A stretch of 64,000 nt of DNA from Actinomycetota bacterium (GTDB taxonomy: Bacteria; Actinomycetota; Thermoleophilia; RBG-16-64-13), in the NCBI GenBank assembly GCA_012523095.1, contig JAAYJE010000033.1:10612-74611 (forward strand). Direction: 5' to 3'. The notes beneath the pieces were generated by a model, which saw only the letters and a program-made list of their open reading frames with translations, ran no database searches and was not told where the DNA came from. Below, piece after piece: positions 19,855 through 57,279 of this stretch. Both the position numbers and the translations under genes were made by a program. Numbering within the stretch: position 1 is the stretch's first letter; each line of letters starts with the position of its first letter.

Positions 19855-19864
19855 GGTGGGCCAC

Positions 19865-33265: not shown

Positions 33266-34699
33266 TCACCCGGCGCCCAGCTTCTCGTCCAGCAGCTCGC
33301 GTATGACCTTGGGATCGGCCTTGCCGCCCGATGCCTGCATCACGCGACCGACCAAGAAACCGAGGGCCTTCACCTGCCCACTCTGGAAGTCGGCCACAGC
33401 CCTCGCCTGCTCGGTAAGGACCTTGTCGATGAGCGGGTCTAGAGCGTCGGCATCGGAGATCTGCTTGAATCCGCGCCGGGCCACGATCGCCTCCGGAGCC
33501 TCATCACATCCGAACATCTCCACGAGTACCTCGCGCGCCGCGTTGGCATTGATCTCGTCCTTTGCAAGCAGGTCAAGAAGCGCGGCCAGGCGCTCCGGGG
33601 CGACCGGCGAGGTGTTCAGATCCTGCCGTCGCTCCCTGACGGCCGGGATCAACTGAGTGGTCAACCAGTGCATGGCGGTCCGCGGTGCAATGCCGCGCGC
33701 GACCAGCGCATCGAAGTAGGCCGCCACCTCGGGGTCGGCGCTCAGAGACAGTGCCTCTTCTCGCGTGAGCCCGTGCTGTGCGGTCAAACGCTCCCCGCGT
33801 TCAGTCGGCATCTCTGGAAGACGGGTCCGCATCTGCTCGATCCATGCGGGGGACAGTTCGATTGCGGGTACGCACGGATCGGGCACACAGGGTCCTTCAA
33901 ATTTGGCCCGCATGGGGAGGGTGGCCTTCTTGTCGGGGTCCCATAGGCGGGTGTGCAGTATCACAGCTTCGTCCGCCTGAACGGCCGCCGTTTGGCGGGC
34001 GATCTCATAGGAGATGGCGTCTCCCACGTGACGCACAGAGTTCATGTTCTTGACTTCGACCTTGGTGTTCATCTGGTCGGTACCGCGAGGACGTATTGAG
34101 ATGTTGGCGTCGGCGCGCATGGTGCCGTCGTCCATGTTGCAGTCGGAGGAGCCCACGTAGCGGACTCGGGTTCGGAGCGTCTTGAGGAACTCCATGGCCT
34201 GATAAGGTGTGCGGAAGTCGGGCTCTGTGACGATCTCTACCAGCGGAGCTCCTGCACGGTTGAAGTCCACCAGACCGACCGGCAGACGTCCCTCCATCTC
34301 ATGCACGAGTTTGGCCACGTCTTCCTCCATGTGGATATGGTGGATACGGAGCTTTCGAGTCACGCCGTCCTCGTCCAGGATGTCGATACCTCCGCCACGG
34401 GAGAGCGGGAGGTGGATCTGTGACAACTGAAAGCCCTTGGGTAGATCGGGGTAGTAGTAGATCTTCTGGTCGAAGGCGCTCCTGGGTTGGAGTTCTGCGC
34501 CCAGCCCCAGAGAAAGAAGTGAGGCTTTCTCAAGGGCTTCCTGGCTCAGGCGGGGAAGCGCCCCGGGCAGCCAGAGACACGTAGGGCAGGTGTTGGCGTT
34601 GGGTTGGTCGCCGGGATGGTTCGGGCAATCACAGAACATCTTGGTGACGCAGTTGAGCTCGACATGGATCTCGAGTCCGATTACCGCTTCGAATTCCAT
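33266..34699 (-). CDS. gatB: Asp-tRNA(Asn)/Glu-tRNA(Gln) amidotransferase subunit B
   Basis: MEFEAVIGLEIHVEL..., YYYPDLPKGFQLSQ, HHIHMEEDVAKLVH, and a C-terminal YqeY-like tail. 477 aa. Confidence 0.9.
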   Translation of the reverse strand: MEFEAVIGLEIHVELNCVTKMFCDCPNHPGDQPNANTCPTCLWLPGALPRLSQEALEKASLLSLGLGAELQPRSAFDQKIYYYPDLPKGFQLSQIHLPLSRGGGIDILDEDGVTRKLRIHHIHMEEDVAKLVHEMEGRLPVGLVDFNRAGAPLVEIVTEPDFRTPYQAMEFLKTLRTRVRYVGSSDCNMDDGTMRADANISIRPRGTDQMNTKVEVKNMNSVRHVGDAISYEIARQTAAVQADEAVILHTRLWDPDKKATLPMRAKFEGPCVPDPCVPAIELSPAWIEQMRTRLPEMPTERGERLTAQHGLTREEALSLSADPEVAAYFDALVARGIAPRTAMHWLTTQLIPAVRERRQDLNTSPVAPERLAALLDLLAKDEINANAAREVLVEMFGCDEAPEAIVARRGFKQISDADALDPLIDKVLTEQARAVADFQSGQVKALGFLVGRVMQASGGKADPKVIRELLDEKLGAG

Positions 34700-34701
34700 G
34701 T

Positions 34702-35943
34702 CTACTCACCTCCCCAAGATTCTGAGATGAATCGGCCCAAGTCCAGCAGACGCCCATCGCTGAGTCTCGGCCCCGTCAGCTGGAAACCTGTTGGTGCGGA
34801 GCCGGGAACCGGCGGCAGGTACAACGCCGGTTGTCCGGTCACATTCGCGTAGAGGGTGGAGGCGTGACTCTCGTAAAGGCCGGCGAGCGACGGCGGAACG
34901 CCCGCGCCGCTGCGGACCTCCTGCGCCGGACCGTCGTCCATCGGCAGCACGAAGAAGTCGACCTCCGACTCGAGCCGCCGCATATCCTCGACCAGACGGG
35001 CGCGGATGCGGCAGGCGTCGATGAACGCCTCGTAGCGTTCGAACTGGAAGAAGGCCCCCTGGATGAGATAGCTCTTGATGAGCGTGCCGAACGCAGCGCC
35101 ACGCGACATGAGGTACATCTCGTTCCAGTTCTTGGCGCCCGGCGCACGGGGTCCGTAGCGCACCGAATCGTAGCGTCCGGCGGCAGAGGAGGCTTCCACG
35201 GAGCCGACGACCCTATGGACGAGCGAGAAAAGCTCGTAGCCGGGCAGAGACACTTCCCGCAGGGTGAAGCCCAAGCGCCTCAGCTCCTCCATGCTCGCGC
35301 GGAAGCCCTCTGCTCCTCTGGGCGTCGGTGCGCCCCGCGAGTCCCCTGTCGCAGGCGACCTTTCTGCGCCTGCGGCCATGCTCTGCGCTTCGGTGATGAT
35401 CCCGATGGTGATCTCTTCCGGTCGGATCTCCCGCGGGGAGAAGTCGGGAGCGTCCTCCTCGGGAAGCGAGAAATCCAGGCCGTCCTGGCCCGCGACGGTC
35501 ATCAGCACCTCCCCGATAGTATTCAGGCTCCCGGACAGGATGCCGCAACACTCCATGGAGGGGATGAGTCCGATCAGGCCGAAGCGTGACACCAGCCCGT
35601 AGCTGGGTTTGAGGCCATAAATGGATGCGTGGGCCGCGGCCAAACGGCTTTCGCCCATGAAGTCCATGAGCAGTTCGGCACCGTCCACAGCCTCCGCTCC
35701 GCCGGCACTCGGCCGGGGGGCCACCGCGGCCGCTCCGCCCACCGGCAGCCCGAAGCCGAACTCGCCCACACAAGCTGAGCTGCGCAGATGGGCTCCGGCC
35801 TCGCGCAACCGTCTTACGACGGTGGCATCCTCCACCGCCGTATAGCCGGTAAGAGCATTTGAACCTGCCTCCGCCGGCCGACCCCGCATCGAGATGTTGG
35901 ACGGCACCGCGACGGTCATATCCTGCTGAAGAGCGGGCTTCAT
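34702..35943 (-). CDS. gatA: GatA-derived subunit with substituted amidase-signature catalytic residues (predicted glutaminase-dead)
   Basis: Clear GatA similarity in the middle and C-terminal parts (YGLKPSYGLVSRFGLI, EASSAAGRYDSVRYG, YLMSRGAAFG). It is only 413 aa. IKDNI reads VPSNI, GGSSGGS is absent (AAVAPRPSAGG), and DTGGSIR reads DFMGESR. A good SD is present and the gene is tightly coupled to its neighbours. Confidence 0.75.
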   Translation of the reverse strand: MKPALQQDMTVAVPSNISMRGRPAEAGSNALTGYTAVEDATVVRRLREAGAHLRSSACVGEFGFGLPVGGAAAVAPRPSAGGAEAVDGAELLMDFMGESRLAAAHASIYGLKPSYGLVSRFGLIGLIPSMECCGILSGSLNTIGEVLMTVAGQDGLDFSLPEEDAPDFSPREIRPEEITIGIITEAQSMAAGAERSPATGDSRGAPTPRGAEGFRASMEELRRLGFTLREVSLPGYELFSLVHRVVGSVEASSAAGRYDSVRYGPRAPGAKNWNEMYLMSRGAAFGTLIKSYLIQGAFFQFERYEAFIDACRIRARLVEDMRRLESEVDFFVLPMDDGPAQEVRSGAGVPPSLAGLYESHASTLYANVTGQPALYLPPVPGSAPTGFQLTGPRLSDGRLLDLGRFISESWGGE

Positions 35944-35954
35944 GAGGTGTCTCC

Positions 35955-38075
35955 CTATTCCAGGATGCCGGCGACTTTGAAGTAGTCGCCTTTGAGAGAG
36001 GGGGCGTTCTTGAGCAGATCACCCGTTTCGGCGGACTCCGAGCGCTTCCCCACCGTTCCCGGCCGCGTGCGGTTGACGACGGGAACAACCGAGTACATCG
36101 GCTCCAGCTCTCCCGCTTCCTTGGCGGCCAGCAGGGCCAGCTCCTCGGCTTGGTCGAGGACGATCTCCATCGCCGGATGCTCCTCCGGGGCGACTCCGAT
36201 GCGAGACAGCCATGAGATGCGGTCCACCCGGTCCTCTCTCTCAGCGGCGTCGGGCGGCACTTCCCGGCCGCCCAGGTCGAGCAGCCCCAGTTCGGCCAAT
36301 TGTTCGCGTTTGACCGAGGCGGGCGCGCCGGTGAGAGGGCAGGCGGCACTACGATTCTTTGGGAAGGCGATAACCTCCCGTATGGAGGGTGTCTGAAGGA
36401 TCATCGACACGGTGCGGTCCATGCCCAGCGCCAGGCCGCCGTGAGGAGGGGGGCCGAAGTCGAAGGCCCGCAGGAAGAACCCGAACCTCTCTCTGACGTC
36501 GTCGTCCGTCAGCCCCAGCGCGGCGAAGATCTTTTGCTGTACCTCGCGGTCGCTGATGCGGATGCTGCCGCCGCCCAGTTCTTCGCCGTTCATGACCAGA
36601 TCGTAGGCCCGGGAGCGCAGTGTCAGCAGCTCCTCCACGTTGTTCGGGTCGAAATCGGTGCGGTCCGGCGCCGTGAACGGGTGGTGGCTGGAAGTGACGC
36701 TCCCCTCGTCGGTTGCGTCGAACAAGGGGAAGTCTGTGACCCAGACCGGGCAGAAGCTGTCCGCGGGAATCAGCCCGAGCCTATCCGCCAGGTGCAGGCG
36801 AAGCCGGCCTAGTGCCGAGGTCACCACATCGTACGCGGGATCGGCGATCATGATGAGGACGTCGCCATCCGCGACCTCGAAGCGCTCGCGCAACCCCTGC
36901 AGCTCTCTCTCGTTGAAGAACTGGACGATGTTGGATTCCAGCGCTCCGTTCTCAGCCCGCATCCAAGTCATGCCCTTGGCGCCGAATGAAGGTGCTATCT
37001 CTTTGGCATACTCGTTTTGAAGCACATTCTTACTGAGTCTATCGGACTGACCTTTGAGGTTAAGCCCCTTGATGCATCCACCCCGTAGAATTATCCGACG
37101 GAAGATCGAGTAGTCGGTTTCGTCGAACAGATCGGTCACATCGACGAAGCGCAGACCAAAACGTAGATCGGGGCGATCGGAGCCGGTGGAATCCACTGCC
37201 TCCGCGTAGGTGATGCGCGGGAAAGGCCGGGTCAGCGAGATGCCGCCCACGGCGAACATCTCGACGACCAACTCTTCGACCAACTCATAGAGGTACTCCT
37301 CGTCGATGAAGGAGGCCTCGATGTCAAGCTGTGTGAACTCCGGTTGCCGGTTGGGGCGTAGGTCTTCGTCGCGAAAACAGCGGGCCAGCTGATAGTAGCG
37401 CTCCATGCCCCCGATCATGAGGAGCTGCTTGAAGAGCTGGGGTGACTGGGGGAGGGCGTAGAAGCTCTGCTGGTGAAGCCGGCTGGGCACTAGGTAGTCT
37501 CGCGCTCCCTCGGGGGTGCTGGCGGTCAGCATAGGAGTCTCGACCTCAACATAACCCTTAGAATCGAGCACCCGGCGCACAGTCTGGAAGATTCGGTGCC
37601 TCAGTACCAGGTTGTCGTGCATGGAGGGGCGGCGGATGTCCAGGTACCGGTACTGGAGGCGCAGATCCTCCGTCACGTGGCCGGTCTCGGTGGAGGCGGC
37701 CCCGGCGACCATGCCTTTCTCTGAGACCGTGAAGGGAAGGGCCTCCGACTCTGAGAGTACTTCAAGTTCGGTGGCCATGACCTCGACCGTCCCGGTCCTT
37801 ATGCCCGGATTCTCGGTTCCCGGGCGGCGGCGTCTCACCTCACCCCTCACCGCAATGCAGTACTCCGAGCGCAGCGCGGCGGCCCGCTCGCAGATATGCC
37901 GCGGCGTCTCCTCCGGGCTGAAGACCAGCTGGATGATGCCGCTCCCGTCGCGAAGATGTACGAACATCAGGCCGCCGTGGTCTCGGAAGGCGTCTACCCA
38001 GCCGGCGACCACCACTTCGCGGCCGGTGTCGGCGGGAGCCAGTTCCCCGCAGAAAGCACGTTCGGAGAGATGCAT
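35955..38075 (-). CDS. aspS: aspartyl-tRNA synthetase fused at its C-terminus to a GatC module
   Basis: ATG at 38075 gives MHLSERAFCGEL...VVVAGWVDAFRDHGGLMFVHLRDGSG, a bacterial AspRS. It runs through the class II motifs to ...VIAFPKN.... After a ~16-aa linker with no stop comes a GatC-like 89 aa (DRISWLSRIGVAPEE...GELEPMYSV...NRTRPG...LLKNAPSLKGDYFKVAGILE*). Confidence 0.85.
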   Translation of the reverse strand: MHLSERAFCGELAPADTGREVVVAGWVDAFRDHGGLMFVHLRDGSGIIQLVFSPEETPRHICERAAALRSEYCIAVRGEVRRRRPGTENPGIRTGTVEVMATELEVLSESEALPFTVSEKGMVAGAASTETGHVTEDLRLQYRYLDIRRPSMHDNLVLRHRIFQTVRRVLDSKGYVEVETPMLTASTPEGARDYLVPSRLHQQSFYALPQSPQLFKQLLMIGGMERYYQLARCFRDEDLRPNRQPEFTQLDIEASFIDEEYLYELVEELVVEMFAVGGISLTRPFPRITYAEAVDSTGSDRPDLRFGLRFVDVTDLFDETDYSIFRRIILRGGCIKGLNLKGQSDRLSKNVLQNEYAKEIAPSFGAKGMTWMRAENGALESNIVQFFNERELQGLRERFEVADGDVLIMIADPAYDVVTSALGRLRLHLADRLGLIPADSFCPVWVTDFPLFDATDEGSVTSSHHPFTAPDRTDFDPNNVEELLTLRSRAYDLVMNGEELGGGSIRISDREVQQKIFAALGLTDDDVRERFGFFLRAFDFGPPPHGGLALGMDRTVSMILQTPSIREVIAFPKNRSAACPLTGAPASVKREQLAELGLLDLGGREVPPDAAEREDRVDRISWLSRIGVAPEEHPAMEIVLDQAEELALLAAKEAGELEPMYSVVPVVNRTRPGTVGKRSESAETGDLLKNAPSLKGDYFKVAGILE

Positions 38076-38232: not shown

Positions 38233-39345
38233 TCAACAGGTGGCCAAAGGCAGGGCGCCCTGCCCACGCTTGCCGTTCGACAGCACGGAGACGTGCTGCT
38301 CCACCACATGCGCGATACGGTTGGGCGAGAGTATGTAGCGAGCGCTTTTGAGTTTGATGGCCTCCCCAGGCATGCCGTAGACCACAGATGTCTCCTCATC
38401 CTGGGCGATGGTCACGGCGCCCTTGTCGCGCATGAGCCGGAGTTCCTTGGCTCCATCTCTGCCCATGCCCGTCAGGAGGATACCGATGGCATTCGCGCCG
38501 TAGTGCTGGGCTACCGATCGGAAGAGTGCCGAGACCGACGGGCGAGAGCCGTTTTCCGGCGGGTCGTCGTTCAACACCAGCCGGCCCTGACGGTTCACAG
38601 TCATGTGCCGGTTGTCGGGCGCGAGGTATACCAAGCCTGGACGGAGGGGCATGCCGTGTTCGCCGACGCAGATCCGGGTGCCGGTCGATTCGGACAGCCA
38701 CGCCACCATGCTTGCCTGAAAGCCGGGACTCAGGTGTTGGACGAGCAGGATGGGTACCGGAACAGGCCGCGTCAGCCCGCGCAGGATGGTCTGTAGCACC
38801 GGCGGCCCTCCTGTTGACGCTCCTATGGCCACCACCTCGATGCGGGTGGCCGGCCGGGCCGGCGAAGGGGGCGGAATCGCTTCCGGGGGGAGCGAACGCG
38901 ACTGAGAACGGCGGTTCCTCCGTCTCACGACCTTGACCTCGGACATCGCGCGTACGGTGCTTATCAGTCTGTCGCCGCTGGCGCGTGCATCCGAGCCGGT
39001 GGGGGTCCAAGTGACGAAAGCCACTGCTCCGACGTTCAACGCCTGGCTCTCGAGGGTGGCCACAGGCGCGTCGGCCTGTTTCGACATCATAACGATGGGG
39101 ACCGGATGCCCGCTCATGATCTCCCATACCGCTGCGTAGCTGCCTGGGTTGGGCAGGTCACAATCGACCAGAATGACGGACGGCGTGACTTCCTCAACGA
39201 GGCACAGTGCTTTGTCCGCGGTCGCTGCTTCGCCCACCACATCGATATCGGCGATGGGGTCGAATAGCCCGCAGAGCCGCTCCCGGGCGGTCGGCGAGTT
39301 GTCGACGATCAGCAGTCTGATCGTTCGAGCCGTATTTTGTGTCAC
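38233..39345 (-). CDS. cheB: chemotaxis-type response regulator protein-glutamate methylesterase (REC-CheB, WspF-like)
   Basis: REC domain (RLLIVDNS..., ILVDCDLP) plus the methylesterase domain (VVAIGASTGGPPVL, LLVQHLSPGF, ILLTGMGRDG). The GTG start overlaps the cheA stop. Confidence 0.9.
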   Translation of the reverse strand: MTQNTARTIRLLIVDNSPTARERLCGLFDPIADIDVVGEAATADKALCLVEEVTPSVILVDCDLPNPGSYAAVWEIMSGHPVPIVMMSKQADAPVATLESQALNVGAVAFVTWTPTGSDARASGDRLISTVRAMSEVKVVRRRNRRSQSRSLPPEAIPPPSPARPATRIEVVAIGASTGGPPVLQTILRGLTRPVPVPILLVQHLSPGFQASMVAWLSESTGTRICVGEHGMPLRPGLVYLAPDNRHMTVNRQGRLVLNDDPPENGSRPSVSALFRSVAQHYGANAIGILLTGMGRDGAKELRLMRDKGAVTIAQDEETSVVYGMPGEAIKLKSARYILSPNRIAHVVEQHVSVLSNGKRGQGALPLATC

Positions 39346-41675
39346 AGGAGACTCCGAGCGGTCTCCAGAAGTGTCCCCTGCGTGAACGAACTCTTCGTGA
39401 GATAGGCGTTCGCCCCTACGTCAATGCCACGTTCCTTGTGCTCCTGGGACTCCATGCCTGTGACAAGCATAACGGGCAGCCGTGACAGGCGCGCGTCGCC
39501 GCGGATCTTGTTGGTCAGCTCGAAGCCGTCCATGCGTGGCATCTCGATGTCGCTGATGACCAGATCGAAATCCTCCTCGTTGAGGGCGGTGAGAGCGTCA
39601 ACCCCGTCCACAGTGGGTCTGACGTAGAAGCCCGCCGCTTCCAGCACGTTCTTGAGCAGCATCCGGGAAGTGATGGAGTCCTCGACGACCAGCACGGCTT
39701 TCCTGGGGACGCCGCCGTTGGCGGAGGCTCCATCGCGGCCTCTCGATGAGATGCCACCTCGGGCCGACTGCAGAAGATCGCTGATGTTGATGATAGGGAC
39801 TACCTTGCCGGATCCCATGATCGTCCCGCCGGCGATGTTCCGTACCCTTATGAGTTGCGGCCCAAGCGTCTTCACCAGCACTTCCTGTTCGTCGATGATG
39901 CTGTCCACCGCGAACGCGACACGCTCGTCTCCGCTGCCGGCCACTACGGCTTGGATATACTCAGAGACACCCCTCTGAGACTTGAGAGGTAGGTCCAGCA
40001 CCTCATGCAGGTACACCAGCGGCAGCGTCTGGCCCTCCAGTTGGATGGTTTCGCGGTTCTCCACCAGGCGCAGGTTGCTTCTGTGGATCCGAACCACCCG
40101 GTCCACTCCCACGACAGGCATGACAAACGGCCAATCGGAGACCTGGGCCACTACGCCCCGGGCCGTGGCCAGGGTCGCCGGTATAGTGATGCGGAATGTG
40201 GTTCCTTTGCCCAACTCGGTCTCGATGGCCACAGAGCCGCCGAGGTTCTCGACCTTCTCCTCCACTATGGCCAGTCCGAGCCCTCTGCCGGAGACCTGTG
40301 ACACCACTTGGGTTGTGGAGAGACCGGAGGCGAAGACCAGGCGAAGAGCTTCACCGTCGTCAGTGTCGTCCACCTGTATCTGGGTGCGATGGCCCTCGCG
40401 CACCGCGGTGTCGCGCAATCGTTGTACGTCGATGCCACCGCCGTCGTCGGAGACGCATATCTCGATCTTGTTGTTTTCGAGTTGAGAGACGGCGACAGAG
40501 ATCAGACCGCGTGGCGATTTGCCCAGGCCCATCCTGATCTCCGGCGTCTCGATCCCGTGGTCGACGCTGTTGCGAAGCAGGTGGATGAGCGGATCCTTGA
40601 GATTCTCAATCACGCGCTTGTCGATCTCGACGTCGGCGCCCACGATGGAGAACTCCACCAGCTTGTCCTTGGAGCGGGCCAGGTCGCGGATCATCTTGGG
40701 GAAGGTGGAGAGAAGAGAGGACATGGGCAGCATCAGGACGCGCTTCATCCCGTCCAACAGGTCGTCGACCATCGGGTCTATCGTGCGCCGTTCGTCATCC
40801 GCGGCTTTGGATAGCGCACGGATGTCGGCGATCACACCTTCCATGAAGGTGGAGTTCCACTCAAGGAAGTCCTCGACCTTGTCGCGGTCGTCGCTGATGT
40901 GAGTCTGATACCACTCCCTCTTCCACATGTCCAAACGGGAACTCAGGTCACGCAGAGCGGTTGCCTGCTGGCCGGCGGATAATTTGACGGAGATGAATTC
41001 CTCCGCCTGCAGCATGAGCGACTCCAGCTTGTTCGTGGCCACGCGGATCGTATCGGTGGCCGTTGCCAGGGGGGCCGTGGGGGTGGTCTGCTGTTCGGCC
41101 GAGGTGCCTTGAGCCGCGGGAGGCGCCGTCGGCGTGGGTTGACGCTCAGGCTGAACTCGGTGCGGCTCGACCGGGAGAGCAGACTCATCCGTAAACGGTT
41201 CCTCAGGGCGCCATCCGCTCCAGGGAGCATCGGGGGCGGCGATCGGCGGGGTTTGCTGTCTGTCCGGTCTCGCGTTGGTCGGTTTGCCGACGGCCGCCAA
41301 TCTCTCGAGCGCGGCGTCGACCCGTCCTTCCATAGACGCCTCGCCCGCGACCAGACAACCTTGGAGGCAGTCGACGCATTCGCTGAGCGCGTCGACCACC
41401 GGATAGGTGACCTGGAGTTCTGCATGCTTGAGCGCGGAGAACACGGACTCTACGTTCTGGCAGATGGAGACCATCAACGCGTATTCGACGGCGGCAGCCG
41501 CCCCCTTGAGACTGTGCGCCTCCCTCAAGAGGATCTCGAGGGGGGCGTGGGCGGCGTAGCCTTCCCCAGCGGCCTCGAGCTCCACCAGCGCCGTGGACAG
41601 TGCACCGATGTGCTCTTCCGCGTCCTGGCGGAACGTCTCCATCAAGTCTCTAAGGAATTCTTCGTCTTCAGTCAT
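39342..41675 (-). CDS. cheA: hybrid CheA-type histidine kinase with C-terminal receiver (WspE-like)
   Basis: HPt (REAHSLKGAA), HATPase (LIHLLRNSVDHGIE, DDGGGID, GRGLGLAIV), a CheW-like domain, and a C-terminal REC (VLVVEDS..., DLVISDIEMPRMDG). Confidence 0.9.
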   Translation of the reverse strand: MTEDEEFLRDLMETFRQDAEEHIGALSTALVELEAAGEGYAAHAPLEILLREAHSLKGAAAAVEYALMVSICQNVESVFSALKHAELQVTYPVVDALSECVDCLQGCLVAGEASMEGRVDAALERLAAVGKPTNARPDRQQTPPIAAPDAPWSGWRPEEPFTDESALPVEPHRVQPERQPTPTAPPAAQGTSAEQQTTPTAPLATATDTIRVATNKLESLMLQAEEFISVKLSAGQQATALRDLSSRLDMWKREWYQTHISDDRDKVEDFLEWNSTFMEGVIADIRALSKAADDERRTIDPMVDDLLDGMKRVLMLPMSSLLSTFPKMIRDLARSKDKLVEFSIVGADVEIDKRVIENLKDPLIHLLRNSVDHGIETPEIRMGLGKSPRGLISVAVSQLENNKIEICVSDDGGGIDVQRLRDTAVREGHRTQIQVDDTDDGEALRLVFASGLSTTQVVSQVSGRGLGLAIVEEKVENLGGSVAIETELGKGTTFRITIPATLATARGVVAQVSDWPFVMPVVGVDRVVRIHRSNLRLVENRETIQLEGQTLPLVYLHEVLDLPLKSQRGVSEYIQAVVAGSGDERVAFAVDSIIDEQEVLVKTLGPQLIRVRNIAGGTIMGSGKVVPIINISDLLQSARGGISSRGRDGASANGGVPRKAVLVVEDSITSRMLLKNVLEAAGFYVRPTVDGVDALTALNEEDFDLVISDIEMPRMDGFELTNKIRGDARLSRLPVMLVTGMESQEHKERGIDVGANAYLTKSSFTQGTLLETARSLL

Positions 41676-41708
41676 CTCGGACCTCTCTTACACGCGATTC
41701 AGGCGCTC

Positions 41709-42311
41709 CTATAGTCCGCTCCGCACCAATAGATCTTCGGAAGCAAGCAGTTTCTCGGCATCCAAGACCACGACCCTGTCCTGGGTGACTCCCTTCAGGT
41801 ATTCCTCGCGCTTCCCGGACAATGTGGCGAGTGCGCGCTGGCCTTGGTCGCCGTCGATCGCGTACACCCCCGCGATCTCATCGGCCAGGACCGCTAATTC
41901 CATCTCTCCATTGTGCAGGATGATCGCTTTGTTGAGATTAGTGAGGCCGACATTCACGAAGTCCATCAAACGGCGTATATCCATGACGGACAGGATGCGG
42001 CCCCGCACGTTCACTACTCCGAGGATGTAGGGCGGCACGTTCGGCAGCGGCGTGATCTCTATGAGGGGGAACACCTCGCGGACGAACGACGTCTCAAAGG
42101 CGTACCGCTCCGGACCGAGGGAGAACTCTAGGATTTCCATGAGCCGTGCCCCGCCCACCTCGGCATCCGGGGTCTTGGCCAGTTCCCTCGCCCGGCGCCT
42201 CAGTATCTCGCGAATCGGATCCGTCTCGGTGACGCCCGCGCGCGGCTCAGGGCTCTCCTGGAGTGGTCCTACTTCAGGTTCTGACATGGACGCTTCATTC
42301 ACGATACACAC
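41709..42311 (-). CDS. cheW: CheW-like coupling protein (WspD-like position)
   Basis: The CheW domain includes ILGVVNVRGRILSVMDIRRL. Alternative ATG at 42287, just after the cheR stop. Confidence 0.8.
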   Translation of the reverse strand: MCIVNEASMSEPEVGPLQESPEPRAGVTETDPIREILRRRARELAKTPDAEVGGARLMEILEFSLGPERYAFETSFVREVFPLIEITPLPNVPPYILGVVNVRGRILSVMDIRRLMDFVNVGLTNLNKAIILHNGEMELAVLADEIAGVYAIDGDQGQRALATLSGKREEYLKGVTQDRVVVLDAEKLLASEDLLVRSGL

Positions 42312-43705
42312 TCACTTCCCATCAGGGACGCCACCGTCTCGGCCATCTCGCCGGCGGTGAGTCCGTCCGCCTCAGGCAATACGGTGCTCGACGGCATCTG
42401 CGCAAGCAGGACGAGCGCCTCGCGGAAATGCTTGGCGGCTTCACCTGATCTGGATTGGCTACGGGCGATGGCGCCCAGCATTATCCGCGCTAGTGCAAAG
42501 CCGCCGTCGAGGAACAGCGTTGACTGCAGGGCCTGCTCCGCCTCGTCGGGGCGGTCCAGTTCCTGCAATATGCTGGCCTTCAGGTAATAGAGGGATGGGT
42601 TGAGCTTGTCGCACTCAAGGGAGGATTCGCAACAAGCCAGTGCTCGATTCAACTCCCCTCTGTCGGCCAGAATCCGCGCCTCTCGTGCGGCTTCCACCGG
42701 GTCCGTCGTCGCCTTGGCCGGCCTCTTCGCGGTCTCGGCTGCCGGCCTCTCGGCGTGGGCGGAGAACGGCCTGTTCTTGCTACGCCGCTCCACACGAGGG
42801 GCTTCCGGTGGCGCTGCTGCGGGCCGGTCCGCGAGCGGAACGTGGAGGTCGTCGTGTACAGCTCCACTGAACCTGGGAGTCTTCTTGTAGACGATCTCGC
42901 CGTTGCTCATGGAAGAAGTGAGGCCGCCCTGGATCTCTCGCGAAGCCTCGCTGGGTGTGACCAGAAGGTAGCCGCCTTCCCTCAAGGACCTGTGTAGTCG
43001 TTCAGCGACTTTTGCAGCCATCTCTCTGGAGAAGTACATCAGCACGTTCCGGCACAGGATCAGATCGAAGTCATGGATGTCCGACCCCGGCGAAGGGTAG
43101 ACGTTGTCGGCAAGGTTGAGAAAGCGGAAGGTCACCATGTCGCGTATCGCGGGGTCGAGCAGGTAGCGGCCCTCCGGGGTCCGGGTGAAGTACCCGTTTA
43201 TCACCCACGAAGGCGTGCCGCGGAAGGACCACTGTGTGTACTCTGCCTTGTTCGCTGCAGCGACGGCTTCGGGATTGACGTCGGTGGCAAGGATGGTCAC
43301 GTCCCAATCGGCGCGGTCGGAGATGAGACGCGAGATCAGGATCGCTAGGGAGTAGGGTTCTTGTCCGGTGGCGCACCCGGCACTCCAGAGCCTGAGCCTC
43401 CTCGTGGTGTGTTGCCGGGCGGCGATCAATTCAGGAAGCAACGAAGACTGCAACATGGCAAAAGTGTCCGGGCTGCGGAAGAAATGGGTCTCACCTACCG
43501 TAAGGTGAGCCGCCAGTGCCTGCACTTCGCGCCGGCCGAAGGAATCGGACAGGAGTCGGGCGACGAGAGAGTGAGGGCTCTCCAAGCCCAGGCTTTGTGC
43601 GGCCCCCTCGAGCCCCCTGACGAGGTCCGGCCAGCGGTCCTCAGGGAAGTTGAGCCCCATGCGCTCCGCGATACGACTTGCCGGCACCGACAGGTCGTAG
43701 TTCAT
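42299..43705 (-). CDS. cheR: CheR-type methyltransferase with a C-terminal TPR region (WspC-like)
   Basis: LRLWSAGCATGQEPYSLAIL, DLILCRNVLMYF, then a Pro/Ala linker and TPR-like helices. Confidence 0.9.
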   Translation of the reverse strand: MNYDLSVPASRIAERMGLNFPEDRWPDLVRGLEGAAQSLGLESPHSLVARLLSDSFGRREVQALAAHLTVGETHFFRSPDTFAMLQSSLLPELIAARQHTTRRLRLWSAGCATGQEPYSLAILISRLISDRADWDVTILATDVNPEAVAAANKAEYTQWSFRGTPSWVINGYFTRTPEGRYLLDPAIRDMVTFRFLNLADNVYPSPGSDIHDFDLILCRNVLMYFSREMAAKVAERLHRSLREGGYLLVTPSEASREIQGGLTSSMSNGEIVYKKTPRFSGAVHDDLHVPLADRPAAAPPEAPRVERRSKNRPFSAHAERPAAETAKRPAKATTDPVEAAREARILADRGELNRALACCESSLECDKLNPSLYYLKASILQELDRPDEAEQALQSTLFLDGGFALARIMLGAIARSQSRSGEAAKHFREALVLLAQMPSSTVLPEADGLTAGEMAETVASLMGSECVS

Positions 43706-44268
43706 GTCATTTCCAATTCGGCCAGAACTGAGGCAAAGTCACGGTCGGAGAAGGATCCGTCTCTGAAGACCACCCTCTCAAGATCGAGGGCGTAGATGAG
43801 CTCGCCGTCTACGGGGACGATCTTCTGGAGGCAGCGCGTCCGCTCGTCGTCGTCGTGAGGAACGAATCCGCCTGACACCTCCAGAGAGCCCAGCGCTGCG
43901 TCCGCGGGGAGGACCACCGAGGTGGTCGAGGTGTTTGCGATGATGAAGTGGTCATCCAGACCTATGTCGCGGGTAGGTTGCCCAAAACGCGCACGGAGAT
44001 CCACGACGGGTAGGACTCGGCCCTGGATGTTGACGACGCCCCGGATGTGAGACGGGGATTCCGGTACGGGCTTGACCTCGACGGCCCGGACTATCCTCTC
44101 GACCTCCCAGATATGAAGAGCGTAGGTCTGCTCGTCGAGTTGGAATGTCACCCAGGTCTCCGTCGTGCCGTCAGCAGCGGCGGCGTCCGCCGCCACGGCC
44201 GGCTCCGCATAGCCTGAAAGACCGTCTGACTGCATGGTCGTCTCACTCTCTCTTCCTAGAAGGAACAT
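43702..44268 (-). CDS. cheW: CheW-like coupling protein (WspB-like position)
   Basis: WVTFQLDEQTYALHIWEVERIV...IRGVVNIQGRVLPVVDLRARFG. The stop overlaps the cheR start (ATGA). Alternative start at ATG 44235. Confidence 0.8.
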   Translation of the reverse strand: MFLLGRESETTMQSDGLSGYAEPAVAADAAAADGTTETWVTFQLDEQTYALHIWEVERIVRAVEVKPVPESPSHIRGVVNIQGRVLPVVDLRARFGQPTRDIGLDDHFIIANTSTTSVVLPADAALGSLEVSGGFVPHDDDERTRCLQKIVPVDGELIYALDLERVVFRDGSFSDRDFASVLAELEMT

Positions 44269-46741: not shown

Positions 46742-47557
46742 TTACAAGATGATGTCTCCCAGGTAGATGCTCTTGTACGTCTTGACCTCGAGTTCCTGGG
46801 TCTTGTAACCAGGCGCACCCACCGTGACTTTGTAGGATCTCCCTTCGGGCAGGTCTTCGAACTCGAAGTCGCCGAACGCGTCGGTCTGGGTGGTCTGGGC
46901 GTCGTCTTCACCCGTCAAGGTCACGGTCACGCCTTTCGCGCACTCGTCCTTATCTCCGAAAGCCACCGAGCCGGCCACGAAGTTCTTCGGCAGCCCGATG
47001 TACCGCACCTTGTCTCCGAGCTTGTACTCGGGATGCATGGCTTCAGCTCGTTTCCACGCCTTGGAGACTTCGCTGTTCGGATCATCCAGGTCACCGAAGA
47101 TGAGTGTGCCGGTCGGACACGCCTCGACGCATCGAGGCTCCTTCCAGCCGGCATCCAGGAGGTGGGCGCAGAACGTGCACTTCTGCGCGACGTCCGCTTC
47201 CGCGTTCCAGTAGATCCGGCGGTATGGGCACCTGGTGACCAGGTCTTTCTGTCCTTTGACCTTCTCGGGGTCGATCATGACGATGCCGTCGTCGCGCATG
47301 TGAACGGCCCCATTCGAATCGGTCATGCAGGCCGGGTTCTCGCACTGCATACAGGGCACAGCGATATAGTCCTGCTTGACCTTGGGGAACTGGCCACGCT
47401 CCACCGGGATGATCTTCATCCAGTCCTGGCCGGTCATCGGCTGGGCGGCGGAGTAGCCCTTCTTCTCCTGCTCGCAGTACTCATCTTTGCATGCGATGAA
47501 GCAGTTGTAGCAGCCGTCACACTTAGTGACGTCGATAACCATTCCGTACCTAGGCAT
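46742..47557 (-). CDS. Fe-S (3x[4Fe-4S]) small subunit of a DMSO-reductase-family enzyme, pyrogallol hydroxytransferase BthL-like
   Basis: MVIDVTKCDGCYNCFIACKDE..., PCMQCENPAC and CTFCAHLLD...RCVEACP. A C-terminal ~80-aa beta-sandwich-like extension matches the architecture I recall for Pelobacter BthL. Confidence 0.75.
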   Translation of the reverse strand: MPRYGMVIDVTKCDGCYNCFIACKDEYCEQEKKGYSAAQPMTGQDWMKIIPVERGQFPKVKQDYIAVPCMQCENPACMTDSNGAVHMRDDGIVMIDPEKVKGQKDLVTRCPYRRIYWNAEADVAQKCTFCAHLLDAGWKEPRCVEACPTGTLIFGDLDDPNSEVSKAWKRAEAMHPEYKLGDKVRYIGLPKNFVAGSVAFGDKDECAKGVTVTLTGEDDAQTTQTDAFGDFEFEDLPEGRSYKVTVGAPGYKTQELEVKTYKSIYLGDIIL

Positions 47558-47560
47558 GTG

Positions 47561-50089
47561 TCATCCCTCCCACTTTGTCATCTCGACGAGACAGGAGTTC
47601 GGCGCCATGCCCGGCACGTTCTTCGACATCATGCGGCCGGGACTGAGTAGGTTGGTGCAGCCGCCTCTGTCGGGGCTGTCGGGGTTGCCTTTTTCAATCG
47701 GGTCGTATCTGGATGACCCCTCGTAGGAGTGCACCACTCCCGGCCGGATCCTCTCGGTCACATAGGCGGCGAAAAGGACGGCTGCACGGTCGTTGTACAG
47801 TTTGATCACGTCACCGTGTTTGATGCCCCTCGCCTCCGCGTCCGTGGGATGGATGCGGCAGATCTGGTAGTTGTAGCCGTCAATCCACATGCGGTGTTCG
47901 GGAATCTCAGAGAGCCACGGAACGCGGGTGTCATGATGTGTGTGGAACGAGAAGCGTGGATGCGGAGACATGAACTGGAGCGGGTACTTCTTGAAGAGTT
48001 CGGACTCGGGACCTTCCCAGCTGGGGATGTACTTCGGCAGGGGAGCGCGCTCGTCATCGTCGGGCGTGTGACGCATGAGGCTCTGCGAGACGAACTCGAT
48101 GAGTCCCGTGTCGGTCGCCAGTTCGTGGGCCTTGTCGGTGCCGCGCTTGGGGTTGCTCGTGTCGGGCGTGTCGCACGGCCGGCCCTCGGCGAACCAGCGC
48201 AGGGCGTAGGTCGGCTTGTAGTCCGGCAACTGCGGGACCACGAAGTAGCCCTTCTTCTTGAATTCCTCGTAGTCCATGTACTCGGGCATGTCGGACCAGT
48301 CGTACATCTTCTTGATCCAGTCCTCCCAGGTGTTGCCCTCGGTGAACTGCTCCTCGTAGCCCAATCTCTTGGCGAGCTCGACGAAGATGTCGTAGTCCGG
48401 CTTCGACTCACCCACCGGGTCGACGCACTTCTGCTGGTACACGATCACCCGGTGGTTGGCGCTACCCGAGGCGTGCAGAGAATAGCCGCCCGAGCTGGCC
48501 CATTCGGCGATGTCGGTGCGCTCCAGGTTGGTGCAGGCCGGCAGGATGACGTCGGCGAACTGAGTCTCGTTGGTGAACCAGCAGTCCTGGTTGACCACGA
48601 ACTCCAGCTTGTCGCTCTGGTACATCCGCACCCACTTGCTGGTGTCGATCATGGTGGAGAGGAACGAGCCGCCGTAGCGGTAGAACATCTTCACCTCGGA
48701 GTGGTCGGGCAACGGATAGGTGAACTTGGTGAAGTGCTGCTCCAGGGAGTTGCCGCAGAAGCCCTCGCCCATCCACGCGATGTGTCCGTCGAGGACGGCG
48801 TCCGGTACCGTCAGCCGATACAGCCTCTGCTTGACAGGGTTGACGGCCGGCTTCTCAGCGATCAGATTGAAGCCGCCCTGCGCGTAGCCCGGGAATTCCA
48901 GCGTGTGGTTGAACGGTGGACCGTTGGCCGTGCCCCAGATGCTGATGCCCGGCAGACCCAGGCCCTGCATGGCCTGCAGGAACACCATATGCCGGGCCGC
49001 TTCGGTCGCATAGGCGTAGCGGCAGGCGCCGCCTTCGCCGCCCTTGGTGCCGCCGGCAAGCGAAGTCCTGTGCGAAGCCCACTCACGGGCAAGGGCCACG
49101 ATGGTGCGGGCTTCGATGCCGCAGATCTCCGCCGCCCAGCGAGGAGTCTTCGGAACGCCGTCGCTCTTGCCGAGTACGTAGTCCTTCCACTCGTCGAACC
49201 CGTGGGTGCGGGTGGCGACGTACTCCTTGTTGTAGGTGTCCTCTTCAAGCCAGACGTAGGCGATGGCTATGGCCAGGGCCGACGTGGTGCCGGGACGGTA
49301 AGAGATCCACTTGCCGTCGATGTGCGCCGCAGTGTAGTTGTGGAACGGGTCGATGAAGATGGTTTTGATGCCTCTCTCCCGCAGCCACAGGCGCCAGACG
49401 GCGGAGTCGGTGCCTCCGTAGATGCCGTGGGTGGTGTCGGGGTCGTTGCTCCATGAGATCAGGAGTTCGGTATTGCGGAGCGCATCCTCGAGCAGGTCGT
49501 AGTGCTCCGGGTTGCCCAGCCTCCAGTAGTAGCCGTACGAGTGGGTCGCTCCCCAGTGCCAACCTTCCCAGCTGTCGGGGTTATCGAGGATGTCGGTGAA
49601 CCCGATCAGGTTGAAGAAGCGGGCCCATGCTCCGGAGCGGTAGCCGAGGTTGCCCCAGTTGTGGTGGGAGGAAGCGCGGGACATGACGGCCTCGGGGCCG
49701 TACGTCTCCCGCACACGCTTCATCTCCTGCGCGACCAGGTCGAGCGCTTCGTCCCAGCTGATCCTCTTATAGCCGGACTTGCCGCGGTTCTGGTGGTTCC
49801 TGCCGCCGGGTCCCGTGGAGCCTGGGGCTCCGCTCGCATCGAAATCCACCCGTTTCATGGGATAGGGGATGCGGTCCTCCGAGTACACGCGGGCCCTTTC
49901 CACCAAAGAGAACGGAGCCACGCACGACTTGCGGAACGGGGTATATTTGTCCTCGCCGACATCGATGGTCCACGAAGGAGCGTCGGTCTCATCGAAGACC
50001 AGCGGACGCACCTTAGTGATCTTGCCGTCCTCCACGTGGACCCGGATCACGCCGCCGCCTGTACAGTTCACGAATACTTCTTCTGCCAT
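47561..50089 (-). CDS. molybdopterin large subunit without an N-terminal Fe-S motif, pyrogallol-phloroglucinol transhydroxylase AthL-like
   Basis: 842 aa. N-terminus NCTGGGVIRVHVEDGKITKVRPL, plus IPYPMKRVDFD, DNPDSWEGWHWG, RLGNPEHYDLLEDAL, LRWFAEGRP..DTPD and MSPHPRFSFHT parallel AthL as I remember it. Confidence 0.7.
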   Translation of the reverse strand: MAEEVFVNCTGGGVIRVHVEDGKITKVRPLVFDETDAPSWTIDVGEDKYTPFRKSCVAPFSLVERARVYSEDRIPYPMKRVDFDASGAPGSTGPGGRNHQNRGKSGYKRISWDEALDLVAQEMKRVRETYGPEAVMSRASSHHNWGNLGYRSGAWARFFNLIGFTDILDNPDSWEGWHWGATHSYGYYWRLGNPEHYDLLEDALRNTELLISWSNDPDTTHGIYGGTDSAVWRLWLRERGIKTIFIDPFHNYTAAHIDGKWISYRPGTTSALAIAIAYVWLEEDTYNKEYVATRTHGFDEWKDYVLGKSDGVPKTPRWAAEICGIEARTIVALAREWASHRTSLAGGTKGGEGGACRYAYATEAARHMVFLQAMQGLGLPGISIWGTANGPPFNHTLEFPGYAQGGFNLIAEKPAVNPVKQRLYRLTVPDAVLDGHIAWMGEGFCGNSLEQHFTKFTYPLPDHSEVKMFYRYGGSFLSTMIDTSKWVRMYQSDKLEFVVNQDCWFTNETQFADVILPACTNLERTDIAEWASSGGYSLHASGSANHRVIVYQQKCVDPVGESKPDYDIFVELAKRLGYEEQFTEGNTWEDWIKKMYDWSDMPEYMDYEEFKKKGYFVVPQLPDYKPTYALRWFAEGRPCDTPDTSNPKRGTDKAHELATDTGLIEFVSQSLMRHTPDDDERAPLPKYIPSWEGPESELFKKYPLQFMSPHPRFSFHTHHDTRVPWLSEIPEHRMWIDGYNYQICRIHPTDAEARGIKHGDVIKLYNDRAAVLFAAYVTERIRPGVVHSYEGSSRYDPIEKGNPDSPDRGGCTNLLSPGRMMSKNVPGMAPNSCLVEMTKWEG

Positions 50090-57073: not shown

Positions 57074-57279
57074 GCAAGTACTGCCATCCTGGGTCCGGCG
57101 TGTACCGGCTCCCATGAGAGGCCCGAGTTGCTCAGCGCTCGGGCCTCGCCATCAAGTCGCAATCTGCGGCTACACGCATGATCACTTGCCCGGCGTGTGG
57201 CCGCGCACCCTGGCGAATGGCGCACCGTCCCTGTATCCTGTCCCGGAAATCGGCGAGTAACGGACAGGGGAGAATCACT

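What the first reader, a model, noticed from the sequence alone, without database searches (positions are those of the whole stretch)
35955..38075. Aspartyl-tRNA synthetase fused in-frame to GatC (a hard-wired transamidosome component)
- The AspRS reading frame does not stop after the usual C-terminus (...VIAFPKN...QLAELGLL).
- It continues through a ~16-aa acidic linker into an 89-aa segment with the hallmarks of GatC: an N-terminal L(S/A)RI...EE helix, GxxEP, N..R.., and the terminal LLKNAP...GDYFKVAGILE. This segment covers about 35958-36224.
- No separate gatC is present. The next genes are gatA-like (SD plus ATG 11 nt after the stop) and gatB (ATG 2 nt after the gatA stop).
- Non-discriminating AspRS, GatCAB and tRNA-Asn are known to form a transamidosome complex. 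A covalent AspRS-GatC link would fix that assembly genetically.
- I am not aware of this fusion being described, but I cannot check.
Basis: partly seen in the sequence, partly recalled or inferred. Interest (0 to 1): 0.7.

Follow-up and report, generated by a model that had tools for sequence, protein, structure and literature searches.

The report
AspRS–GatC fusion with dead GatA partner
The aspartyl-tRNA synthetase really is fused in frame to a GatC-like tail; NCBI already catalogues this architecture, but its operon partner GatA has lost its whole glutaminase site while GatB is intact, which points to an unstudied tethered machine for making Asn-tRNA.

Summary
One 706-codon frame (38075→35958, minus strand) encodes a complete bacterial-type AspRS, a 22-residue spacer and a C-terminal GatC-like domain. 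A GatA-like gene and gatB follow, 11 nt and 2 nt downstream.

It is not an assembly artefact. The same three-gene module occurs in 141 species genomes, with cultured carriers in Desulfobacterota: Syntrophus, Syntrophorhabdus, Desulfatitalea and Desulfocicer. The tail is under purifying selection.

The fusion is not new as an architecture. NCBIfam NF009460 (PRK12820) is named [quoted passage not shown]. I found no paper on it.

New points from this work:
- The GatA-like subunit lacks the catalytic Lys, the cis-Ser motif, the nucleophile Ser (Glu in 74/74) and both glutamine-binding residues. It is still conserved (dN/dS 0.14–0.34).
- GatB keeps every ATP, Mg and catalytic residue checked (70/70).
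- In Smithella genomes a normal hisS-aspS operon lies nearby, so the fused AspRS is an extra paralog there.

Best reading: a covalently tethered Asn-transamidosome that does not use GatA-catalysed glutamine hydrolysis and probably takes free ammonia. That last step is inferred, not shown.

The parts
35955..38075 (-). aspS::gatC fusion gene: 706 codons plus TAG stop
   Evidence: The ORF is continuous. NCBIfam NF009460 matches end to end at 1260 bits, NF001750 aspS at 741 bits and TIGR00459 at 679 bits. More than 120 homolog clusters, almost all 704-710 aa, share 73-100% identity.
37755..38015 (-). Anticodon-binding OB domain (residues 21-107) with 'RDHGG' and 'RRPGTENP'
   Evidence: Pfam PF01336. 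The best PDB matches are AspRS chains deposited as Asp/Asn ligases: 4o2d, 4rmf, 5w25, 4wj3_M and 5gro. Alignment.
36351..37670 (-). Class II catalytic core (residues 136-575), including the bacterial GAD insertion (residues 326-421, 36813-37100)
   Evidence: Pfam PF00152 at 385 bits and PF02938 at 63 bits. PDB AspRS matches reach E about 1e-157.
36216..36281 (-). Fixed-length 22-residue spacer (residues 599-620, LDLGGREVPPDAAEREDRVDRI)
   Evidence: The spacer is 22 aa in 68 of 70 genomes and carries a conserved L[DN]LGG..LPG motif.
35958..36215 (-). GatC-like domain (residues 621-706; SWLSRIG ... LLKNAPSLKGDYFKVAGILE)
   Evidence: PF02686 gives 26.6 bits on the tail alone, and TIGR00135 covers model positions 4-93 of 93. 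It aligns to S. aureus GatC 2df4_C residues 7-94. All 13 of 13 family tails hit PF02686. Median dN/dS is 0.18.
35944..35954 (-). 11-nt intergenic spacer with a GGGAG Shine-Dalgarno before the GatA-like ATG
   Evidence: Sequence read directly.
34702..35943 (-). GatA-like pseudo-glutaminase (413 aa)
   Evidence: PF01425 at 129 bits. TIGR00132 scores 178 bits against a cut-off of 481. The catalytic Lys is Pro here (Gln in 62 of 74 family members, Lys in none), the cis-Ser motif is deleted, the nucleophile Ser is Glu, the Gln-binding Arg is Tyr/Phe, and the Gln-binding Asp is His here (Phe in 66 of 74, Asp in none). The AF2 model's best PDB matches are all GatA subunits. dN/dS is 0.14-0.34.
33266..34699 (-). 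gatB (477 aa), kinase/transamidase subunit with YqeY tail
   Evidence: NF004012 scores 544 bits against a cut-off of 338; Pfam finds GatB_N and GatB_Yqey. It aligns end to end with Aquifex GatB 3h0l_B. All ATP, Mg and catalytic residues checked are conserved in 70 of 70. There is a family-specific 3-aa deletion in the DYRYFPDPDL motif.

Best explanation
The three co-directional, tightly spaced genes encode a self-contained machine for tRNA-dependent asparagine formation, in which the synthetase is covalently tied to the amidotransferase.

Shown by sequence:
- The first protein is a complete bacterial-type AspRS. Its C-terminus continues through a fixed 22-residue spacer into a GatC homolog.
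- The second protein has the GatA fold but no glutaminase catalytic or glutamine-binding residues.
- The third is a GatB with all kinase/transamidase residues and the tRNA-binding YqeY tail.

Inferred mechanism:
1. As in GatCAB, the GatC-like tail wraps the interface between the GatA-like subunit and GatB. This docks one amidotransferase on each subunit of the AspRS dimer.
2. AspRS charges tRNA-Asn with aspartate.
3. The acceptor end passes to GatB, which phosphorylates the side chain and amidates it to give Asn-tRNA-Asn.

Because the GatA-like subunit cannot hydrolyse glutamine, the nitrogen most likely enters as free ammonia or ammonium through the remodelled former active site or tunnel. 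The GatA-like protein would be kept as a scaffold and entry port. This is comparable to ammonia-dependent carbamoyl-phosphate synthetase I, which retains a dead glutaminase domain (from my own knowledge).

The tether would replace the weak, dynamic association seen in bacterial-type transamidosomes and keep mischarged Asp-tRNA-Asn away from the ribosome.
For: Fusion and domains:
- Established.
- The module is conserved as a unit with unrelated flanks in 141 species genomes.
- The spacer length is fixed.
- There is purifying selection on all parts, including the tail.

AspRS:
- It scores far above the curated cut-offs for aspS.
- Its anticodon-binding domain is closest to structurally characterised Asp/Asn ligases.

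GatA-like subunit:
- The triad and substrate residues are absent in 74 of 74.
- The GatA fold is retained.

GatB:
- Catalytic residues are intact in 70 of 70.

Literature:
- GatC is needed for GatA folding and for assembly with GatB (PMC2330236).
- The H. pylori bacterial-type Asn-transamidosome is dynamic and less stable than the Thermus one (PMC3367201).
- A GatFAB amidotransferase works with 20 mM NH4Cl when the glutaminase step is bypassed (PMC4027206).
- Syntrophus aciditrophicus is listed without asnS, so it depends on the indirect route (PMC4206432 Table S1).

The window comes from an anaerobic digester metagenome. Digesters are usually ammonium-rich (own knowledge).
Against: - Nothing biochemical exists. 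The complex, the tRNA specificity, the product and the nitrogen donor are all inferred.
- I could not establish whether carriers also hold a canonical gatCAB that could supply an active GatA.
- In Smithella genomes a housekeeping AspRS with the same 'RDHGG' and Gly features sits nearby. The division of labour between the two AspRS copies is therefore unclear.
- The module's GatB carries a family-wide deletion in the otherwise conserved DYRYFPDPDL motif, with unknown effect.
- Single-sequence GatC scores are marginal. The tail found no canonical GatC at E<1e-3 among 1.84 billion representatives.
- No tRNA-Asn gene or T-box accompanies the module.
Confidence: 0.55

Rival explanations
1. Redundant or conditional back-up. 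The carriers also hold a canonical gatCAB and a housekeeping AspRS that do the routine work. This module is a specialised second system, for example for tRNA-dependent asparagine biosynthesis when ammonium is plentiful. It might borrow the canonical GatA or another glutaminase.
For: A housekeeping hisS-aspS operon sits next to the module in five Smithella-type genomes and is widespread in Smithellaceae. Extra AspRS/GatCAB sets with conditional roles are reported for Clostridium acetobutylicum and Thermus/Deinococcus (PMC4206432). The module's GatB is a distinct subfamily.
Against: The GatC-like tail and the GatA-like subunit have co-diverged and are always adjacent, which argues that they pair with each other rather than with canonical subunits. 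No canonical gatA or gatC was seen within 10 kb in 80 genomes. A published survey counts only one gatCAB in S. aciditrophicus.
Confidence: 0.25
2. The chemistry has changed. GatB still activates Asp-tRNA by phosphorylation, but the remodelled GatA-like pocket delivers a nucleophile other than ammonia, or the module makes an aminoacyl-tRNA for a use outside translation.
For: The replacement residues are invariant rather than random: Glu at the nucleophile Ser in 74 of 74, and Tyr/Phe at the glutamine-binding Arg and Asp. This hints at a new ligand site. GatA/GatC-derived pairs with other functions exist, such as AtzE/AtzG (6c62 among the fold matches).
Against: The flanking genes are not conserved, so no further pathway partner is evident. 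GatB's catalytic residues and tRNA-binding tail are canonical. No candidate alternative substrate emerges from the data.
Confidence: 0.08
3. Artefact or decaying locus. The fusion results from a lost stop codon or an assembly error, and the GatA-like gene is a pseudogene.
For: A few draft genomes show frameshifted copies (L032, L048, L057, L073).
Against: The same frame, length and spacer occur in 141 species genomes and more than 120 protein clusters. dN/dS is 0.05-0.34 for all three genes and 0.18 for the tail. The L057 split is a single-base deletion relative to a near-identical intact copy.
Confidence: 0.01

Closest known systems
NCBIfam NF009460 / PRK12820, 'bifunctional aspartyl-tRNA synthetase/aspartyl/glutamyl-tRNA amidotransferase subunit C'
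   Same: The architecture is identical. The window protein aligns to model positions 18-723 of 723, as do seven other family members tested.
   Different: The score of 1260 bits is below the very strict cut-off of 1379. Even Syntrophus buswellii (1316 bits) fails it. RefSeq and UniRef therefore call these proteins plain 'aspartate--tRNA ligase'. The model's name implies a normal GatC role and says nothing about the dead GatA partner.
Asn-transamidosomes of Thermus thermophilus (3KFU), Pseudomonas aeruginosa (4WJ3) and Helicobacter pylori
   Same: The same component families take part: a non-discriminating-type AspRS, GatA, GatB, GatC and tRNA-Asn. The window proteins match those chains.
   Different: Those complexes are non-covalent, and the H. 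pylori bacterial-type complex is dynamic (PMC3367201). They use an active GatA glutaminase. Here AspRS and GatC are one polypeptide and GatA is catalytically dead.
Extra AspRS plus extra GatCAB in Clostridium acetobutylicum
   Same: A second AspRS is associated with its own amidotransferase set (PMC4206432). From memory, aspS2 and gatCAB2 form one operon.
   Different: The genes are separate there and GatA is active. Here they are fused and GatA is degenerate.
Yeast mitochondrial GatFAB
   Same: The GatC-type belt is embedded in a larger polypeptide. The enzyme can use NH4Cl when the glutaminase step is bypassed (PMC4027206).
   Different: GatF's extension scaffolds an active GatA. It is not a synthetase.
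Other fusions: Deinococcus GlnRS-YqeY and the Mycobacterium smegmatis gatC-gatA fusion
   Same: These are precedents for joining synthetase and amidotransferase parts in one chain (PMC1865053, PMC7541841; listed).
   Different: The partners differ. The mycobacterial fusion is a laboratory mutant, not a conserved family.
Ammonia-dependent enzymes that keep a dead glutaminase module, such as carbamoyl-phosphate synthetase I (own knowledge)
   Same: The glutaminase catalytic residues are lost while the domain is retained as a structural part of an ammonia-using synthetase.
   Different: The fold and pathway are unrelated. The analogy concerns mechanism only.

Membership tests
NCBIfam NF009460 (bifunctional AspRS/GatC) | End-to-end match to the 723-position profile, covering both the AspRS and the GatC part | tested here: met
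   Residues 1-706 align to model positions 18-723 with E=0.
NCBIfam NF009460 (bifunctional AspRS/GatC) | Score at or above the curated cut-off of 1379 bits | tested here: not met
   The window protein scores 1260.1 bits. Seven relatives score 1160-1316 bits and also fail. The model is narrowly trained, and the window protein is a more distant member of the same architecture.
Bacterial-type AspRS (NF001750 / TIGR00459) | Score above the curated cut-off, with an OB anticodon domain, class II core and GAD insertion | tested here: met
   741 bits against a cut-off of 443, and 679 against 374. Pfam finds the three domains.
Non-discriminating AspRS | His and Gly in the anticodon-binding domain at the positions equivalent to P. 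aeruginosa H31 and G83 (criterion recalled from Bernard et al. 2006, not re-read) | tested here: met
   'RDHGG' and 'RRPGTENP' align with the P. aeruginosa, M. smegmatis and H. pylori Asp/Asn ligases. The unfused Smithella AspRS has them too, so they do not distinguish the paralogs.
Non-discriminating AspRS | Aspartylates tRNA-Asn as well as tRNA-Asp | not testable with these tools
   This needs an aminoacylation assay.
GatC (PF02686 / TIGR00135) | Profile match at or above the curated threshold | tested here: inconclusive
   Pfam gives 26.6 bits for the tail alone (gathering score 23) but 21.5 bits in the full protein. TIGR00135 gives 26 bits against 47, although it covers positions 4-93 of 93. 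All 13 of 13 family tails hit PF02686.
GatC (PF02686 / TIGR00135) | Encoded immediately upstream of gatA and gatB | tested here: met
   The order is fusion tail, GatA-like, gatB, with gaps of 11 nt and 2 nt. The order is the same in all loci with enough flank.
GatA (TIGR00132; amidase-signature glutaminase) | Ser-cisSer-Lys catalytic triad | tested here: not met
   Lys is present in 0 of 74, the cis-Ser motif is deleted in 73-74 of 74, and the nucleophile Ser is Glu in 74 of 74.
GatA (TIGR00132; amidase-signature glutaminase) | Glutamine-binding Arg and Asp (S. aureus R358 and D425; yeast R334 and D418 in PMC4027206) | tested here: not met
   Arg is replaced by Tyr in 61, Phe in 12 and Leu in 1. 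Asp is replaced by Phe in 66 and by other residues in 8.
GatA (TIGR00132; amidase-signature glutaminase) | Score at or above the curated cut-off of 481 bits | tested here: not met
   178 bits. The N-terminal 60 or so model positions are absent.
GatA (TIGR00132; amidase-signature glutaminase) | GatA fold | tested here: met
   The AF2 model has pTM 0.78 and pLDDT 68. The top nine Foldseek PDB matches are all GatA subunits with TM about 0.7.
GatB (NF004012 / TIGR00133) | Score above the cut-off, with ATP, Mg and catalytic residues and the YqeY tail | tested here: met
   544 bits against 338, and 463 against 315. The residues are conserved in 70 of 70. It aligns end to end with 3h0l_B.
Transamidosome (ND-aaRS, amidotransferase and tRNA particle) | Physical complex that channels the mischarged tRNA | not testable with these tools
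   Multimer modelling was not available. The full-length monomer model was too poor to use.

The most novel reading that the evidence does not exclude
This would be a glutamine-independent, ammonia-using tRNA-dependent amidotransferase. GatA has become a conserved pseudoenzyme that acts as scaffold and ammonium port, and GatC is welded to a dedicated AspRS. In AsnRS-lacking carriers such as Syntrophus it would be a main, or the only, route to Asn-tRNA-Asn. It would save the ATP otherwise spent on glutamine synthesis in energy-limited syntrophs.
Probability: 0.3. Interest if true: 0.8.

Novelty: new variant of a known kind. Interest (0 to 1): 0.55.

Why it matters
Transamidosomes are the textbook case of substrate channelling that protects the genetic code. 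How stably the synthetase and the amidotransferase associate differs between organisms and is still debated.

A natural, widely conserved covalent AspRS-GatC link gives a ready-made stable particle for structural and kinetic work. The accompanying GatA, which has lost every glutaminase residue while GatB is untouched, raises a directly testable question. Can a tRNA-dependent amidotransferase run on free ammonia in vivo, and what does a dead GatA contribute?

It also matters for annotation. Public records name these proteins 'aspartate--tRNA ligase', 'amidase family protein' or 'GatA'. Genome surveys of Asn/Gln-tRNA pathways can therefore miscount AspRS and GatCAB in Desulfobacterota.

Tried and rejected
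- **Literature.** Nine full-text searches were run (one search was rejected for a term error). I also read reviews and surveys. No paper describes the fusion or a dead GatA. Sheppard & Söll 2008 (JMB) is not held.
- **Full-length AF2 model of the fusion.** It gave pLDDT 52 and pTM 0.33 with a shallow alignment. It was not used.
- **Regulatory RNA.** An Rfam gathering scan of the whole window found nothing, so no T-box leader.
- **Promoter and terminator scan.** It found no more than chance.
- **Dedicated tRNA.** There is none in the window or in 60 loci.
- **A natural unfused form.** The split copy in Syntrophorhabdus aromaticivorans (L057) is a 1-nt deletion relative to the intact, near-identical L055. 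The short hits in the representative library look like fragments.
- **First pattern scan.** Alignment A1 was too divergent, so it was repeated with A2.
- **asnS, asnA, asnB, glnS, gatC or a canonical gatA in the window.** None was found among about 40 ORFs scanned with Pfam.
- **Telling the two AspRS paralogs apart by the His and Gly 'non-discriminating' residues.** Both have them.
- **Carrier taxonomy from MAG labels.** The labels are inconsistent and locus GC ranges from 42% to 70%. Only the cultured Desulfobacterota carriers are relied on.
Full report
**What is there**

On the minus strand a single reading frame runs from ATG 38075 to TAG 35955-35957. The purely mechanical ORF extends upstream to 38399. 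The 706-residue product starting at 38075 is the one shared by more than 120 homolog clusters, almost all 704-710 aa, at 73-100% identity. It is also the one that aligns end to end with the NCBIfam profile.

Pfam finds the three parts of a bacterial-type AspRS: the OB anticodon domain at residues 21-107, the class II core at 136-575 and the GAD insertion at 326-421. It also finds a C-terminal GatC match at 640-701. The aspS equivalog models are passed by a wide margin, 741 bits against 443 and 679 against 374.

The GatC signal is weak for one sequence. Pfam gives 26.6 bits on the tail alone against a gathering score of 23, and 21.5 bits in the whole protein. TIGR00135 gives 26 bits against 47. 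phmmer to S. aureus GatC gives E = 0.18.

Three things make the signal credible. TIGR00135 is covered from position 4 to 93 of 93. S. aureus GatC is covered from residue 7 to 94. All 13 diverse tails tested hit PF02686. The tail also occupies the gatC position of a gatCAB operon. A GatA-like gene starts 11 nt after the stop, behind a GGGAG Shine-Dalgarno, and gatB starts 2 nt after the GatA-like stop.

**Not an artefact**

A scan of 185,579 species genomes used the tail motif KG[DNG]YFKVA. It gave 141 confirmed loci, of which I examined the best 80. Wherever enough flank is present, the order is fusion, GatA-like, gatB. The surrounding genes differ between lineages, so the three genes travel as a unit.

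The stretch between the AspRS end (…ELGL) and the GatC-like start (SW[VL]SR) is 22 residues in 68 of 70 genomes. It carries a conserved L[DN]LGG..LPG motif.

dN/dS over 15 genome pairs is 0.05-0.21 for the fusion, 0.055-0.22 for gatB and 0.14-0.34 for the GatA-like gene. The 122 C-terminal codons alone have a median of 0.18.

The few split copies in draft genomes are frameshifts. The second Syntrophorhabdus copy differs from the intact one by a single deleted base.

Cultured carriers are Syntrophus buswellii, Syntrophorhabdus aromaticivorans, Desulfatitalea alkaliphila and Desulfocicer vacuolatum, all Desulfobacterota. MAG labels are heterogeneous and I do not rely on them. The window itself is a contig from an anaerobic digester metagenome.

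**Already catalogued**

NCBIfam NF009460 (PRK12820) is named [quoted passage not shown]. It matches the window protein over model positions 18-723 of 723 at 1260 bits.

Its cut-off of 1379 bits is so strict that the window protein and seven relatives, including S. buswellii at 1316 bits, all fall below it. This explains why RefSeq and UniRef call these proteins simply "aspartate--tRNA ligase".

I found no paper that mentions the fusion. A 2014 survey of 547 genera lists no Desulfobacterota among genomes with two AspRS. It records S. aciditrophicus with one aspS, one gatCAB, no asnS and one glnS (PMC4206432).

**The partner is not a normal GatA**

The 413-residue product of 34702-35943 scores only 178 bits on the gatA equivalog, against a cut-off of 481, and lacks the first 60 or so model positions.

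I aligned it to Aquifex and Thermus GatA and to 73 orthologs from other genomes. The comparison shows:

| Canonical feature | State in the family |
|---|---|
| Catalytic Lys of AVKDNI | Never Lys (Gln in 62, Glu in 5, Asp in 3, others) |
| GGSSGGS cis-Ser motif | Removed by a deletion of about 22 residues, in 73-74 of 74 |
| Nucleophile Ser of DTGGSIR | Glu in 74 of 74 |
| Glutamine-binding Arg (S. aureus R358) | Tyr or Phe in 73 of 74 |
| Glutamine-binding Asp (S. aureus D425) | Phe in 66 of 74, never Asp |

The R358 and D425 numbering is from memory. It is consistent with the yeast residues R334 and D418 named in PMC4027206.

The protein is nevertheless under purifying selection. An AlphaFold model (pTM 0.78, pLDDT 68, with the low-confidence stretches concentrated in the former active-site loops) finds GatA subunits as its nine best PDB matches.

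Public names for it are "amidase family protein", "hypothetical protein" or "amidotransferase subunit A".

**GatB is intact**

The gatB product passes its equivalog cut-off, 544 bits against 338, and aligns end to end with Aquifex GatB.

It keeps every ATP, Mg and catalytic residue I checked in 70 of 70 orthologs. These are the Glu and His of GLEIH, EED of HIEED, E/T/E of EIVTEPD, N/N/S of KNVNS, and conserved Lys, Arg, Asp and Asn. The only variation is Thr to Ser in 7 sequences and Glu to Gln in 2, both in EIVTEPD.

One family-wide oddity is a 3-residue deletion in the usually conserved DYRYFPDPDL motif. Its significance is unknown.

**The fused AspRS is an extra copy in some carriers**

Five Smithella-type loci carry a second, unfused AspRS of 589-599 residues. 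It is 45% identical to the fused one and lies directly downstream of hisS. It scores 868-879 bits on the aspS equivalog. Orthologs of this housekeeping copy are widespread in Smithellaceae.

Both copies have the "RDHGG" His and the Gly that I recall as markers of non-discriminating bacterial AspRS. The fused copy's anticodon-binding domain is closest to PDB chains deposited as Asp/Asn ligases. These residues therefore do not separate the roles of the two copies.

**How it most likely works**

Shown by sequence are a complete AspRS, a GatC homolog on a fixed-length tether, a glutaminase-dead GatA-fold protein and a catalytically complete GatB.

The rest is inferred:
- The tail wraps the interface between the GatA-like subunit and GatB, as GatC does. 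GatC is required for GatA folding and for assembly with GatB (PMC2330236). One amidotransferase would thus sit on each AspRS subunit.
- Asp-tRNA-Asn made by the synthetase is handed to GatB and converted to Asn-tRNA-Asn.
- A covalent link would replace the weak, dynamic association reported for the H. pylori bacterial-type transamidosome (PMC3367201).
- Because glutamine hydrolysis is excluded, free ammonia is the simplest nitrogen source. An amidotransferase of this class works with NH4Cl when the glutaminase step is bypassed (PMC4027206). The carriers live in anaerobic, typically ammonium-rich settings.
- Using ammonia directly would also save the ATP spent on making glutamine. This is an attractive but speculative rationale for energy-limited syntrophs.

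I put about 0.55 on this overall reading. Within it, the fusion and its GatC homology rate about 0.97, assembly with the two downstream products about 0.8, and ammonia as donor about 0.4.

**Rivals**

- A conditional second system working beside a canonical gatCAB and possibly borrowing an active glutaminase (0.25).
- A changed chemistry or non-translational product (0.08).
- An artefact or decaying locus (0.01, effectively refuted).

**Verdict**

The fusion is real and conserved, but it is already catalogued. What appears undescribed is the system around it: a tethered AspRS-GatC, a conserved pseudo-GatA and an intact GatB across at least 141 species. I rate it a new variant of a known kind, with moderate to good interest. 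One genome inventory and a few standard assays would settle the matter.

Noticed in passing
window 34702-35943 (-), and the orthologous genes in L006-L085: The GatA-like subunit is a conserved pseudoenzyme. It has no catalytic Lys, the cis-Ser motif is deleted, the nucleophile Ser is Glu in 74 of 74, and the glutamine-binding Arg and Asp are replaced by aromatic residues. dN/dS is still 0.14-0.34.
   Followed up: yes
window 33266-34699 (-), around residues 263-277; all 70 orthologs: The module's GatB carries a family-wide 3-residue deletion and substitutions in the normally conserved 'KEEAEDYRYFPDPDL' motif, which becomes 'KFEGP---C[VI]PDP[ST]V'. All ATP, Mg and catalytic residues are kept.
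   Followed up: partly
L014 4867-7963, L023 5381-7153, L024 16112-19469, L026 13994-15772, L029 7885-9654: An unfused AspRS (589-599 aa) lies within about 6 kb of the fused module in five Smithella-type genomes. In the two loci checked (L014, L024) hisS sits directly upstream, forming a housekeeping hisS-aspS operon. These genomes therefore have two bacterial-type AspRS, a situation not listed for Desulfobacterota in the 2014 survey (PMC4206432 Table S2).
   Followed up: partly
L055 and L057 (Syntrophorhabdus aromaticivorans UI, two scaffolds): There are two near-identical copies of the module. The L057 copy has a single-base deletion that splits AspRS from the GatC-like tail. This is either a draft assembly error or a recent pseudogene.
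   Followed up: partly
L006-L085 record titles: MAG carriers bear very different taxonomic labels (Dehalococcoidia, Thermoleophilia, Pirellulaceae, Nitrospirota, Omnitrophota and others) despite 46-72% identity in the 122-residue tail used for the scan. Locus GC ranges from 42% to 70%. This could reflect mislabelled bins or horizontal transfer and is unresolved.
   Followed up: partly
window 38233-44268 (-): A chemotaxis cluster lies directly upstream of the fusion gene: cheW, cheR with TPR repeats, cheW, a cheA-type hybrid kinase with a receiver domain, and cheB. It is not conserved next to the module in other genomes.
   Followed up: partly
window 19835-22505 (+): Two adjacent HGD-D family genes are present (2-hydroxyacyl-CoA dehydratase / benzoyl-CoA reductase-like D components). 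Together with the thiolase, acyl-CoA dehydrogenase, enoyl-CoA hydratase and ETF/ETF-QO genes elsewhere in the window, they fit an anaerobic fatty-acid or aromatic degrader.
   Followed up: no
window 47561-50089 (-) and 57178-59877 (+): There are two molybdopterin oxidoreductases. The first has a pyrogallol-hydroxytransferase-like (AhtL) N-terminal domain and is followed by a 4Fe-4S dicluster protein at 46742-47557.
   Followed up: no
window 3873-5273 (-): One protein combines SLH domains, a peptidoglycan-binding domain and a YkuD L,D-transpeptidase domain. SLH domains are unusual for Desulfobacterota, which adds to the uncertainty about the window's taxon.
   Followed up: no
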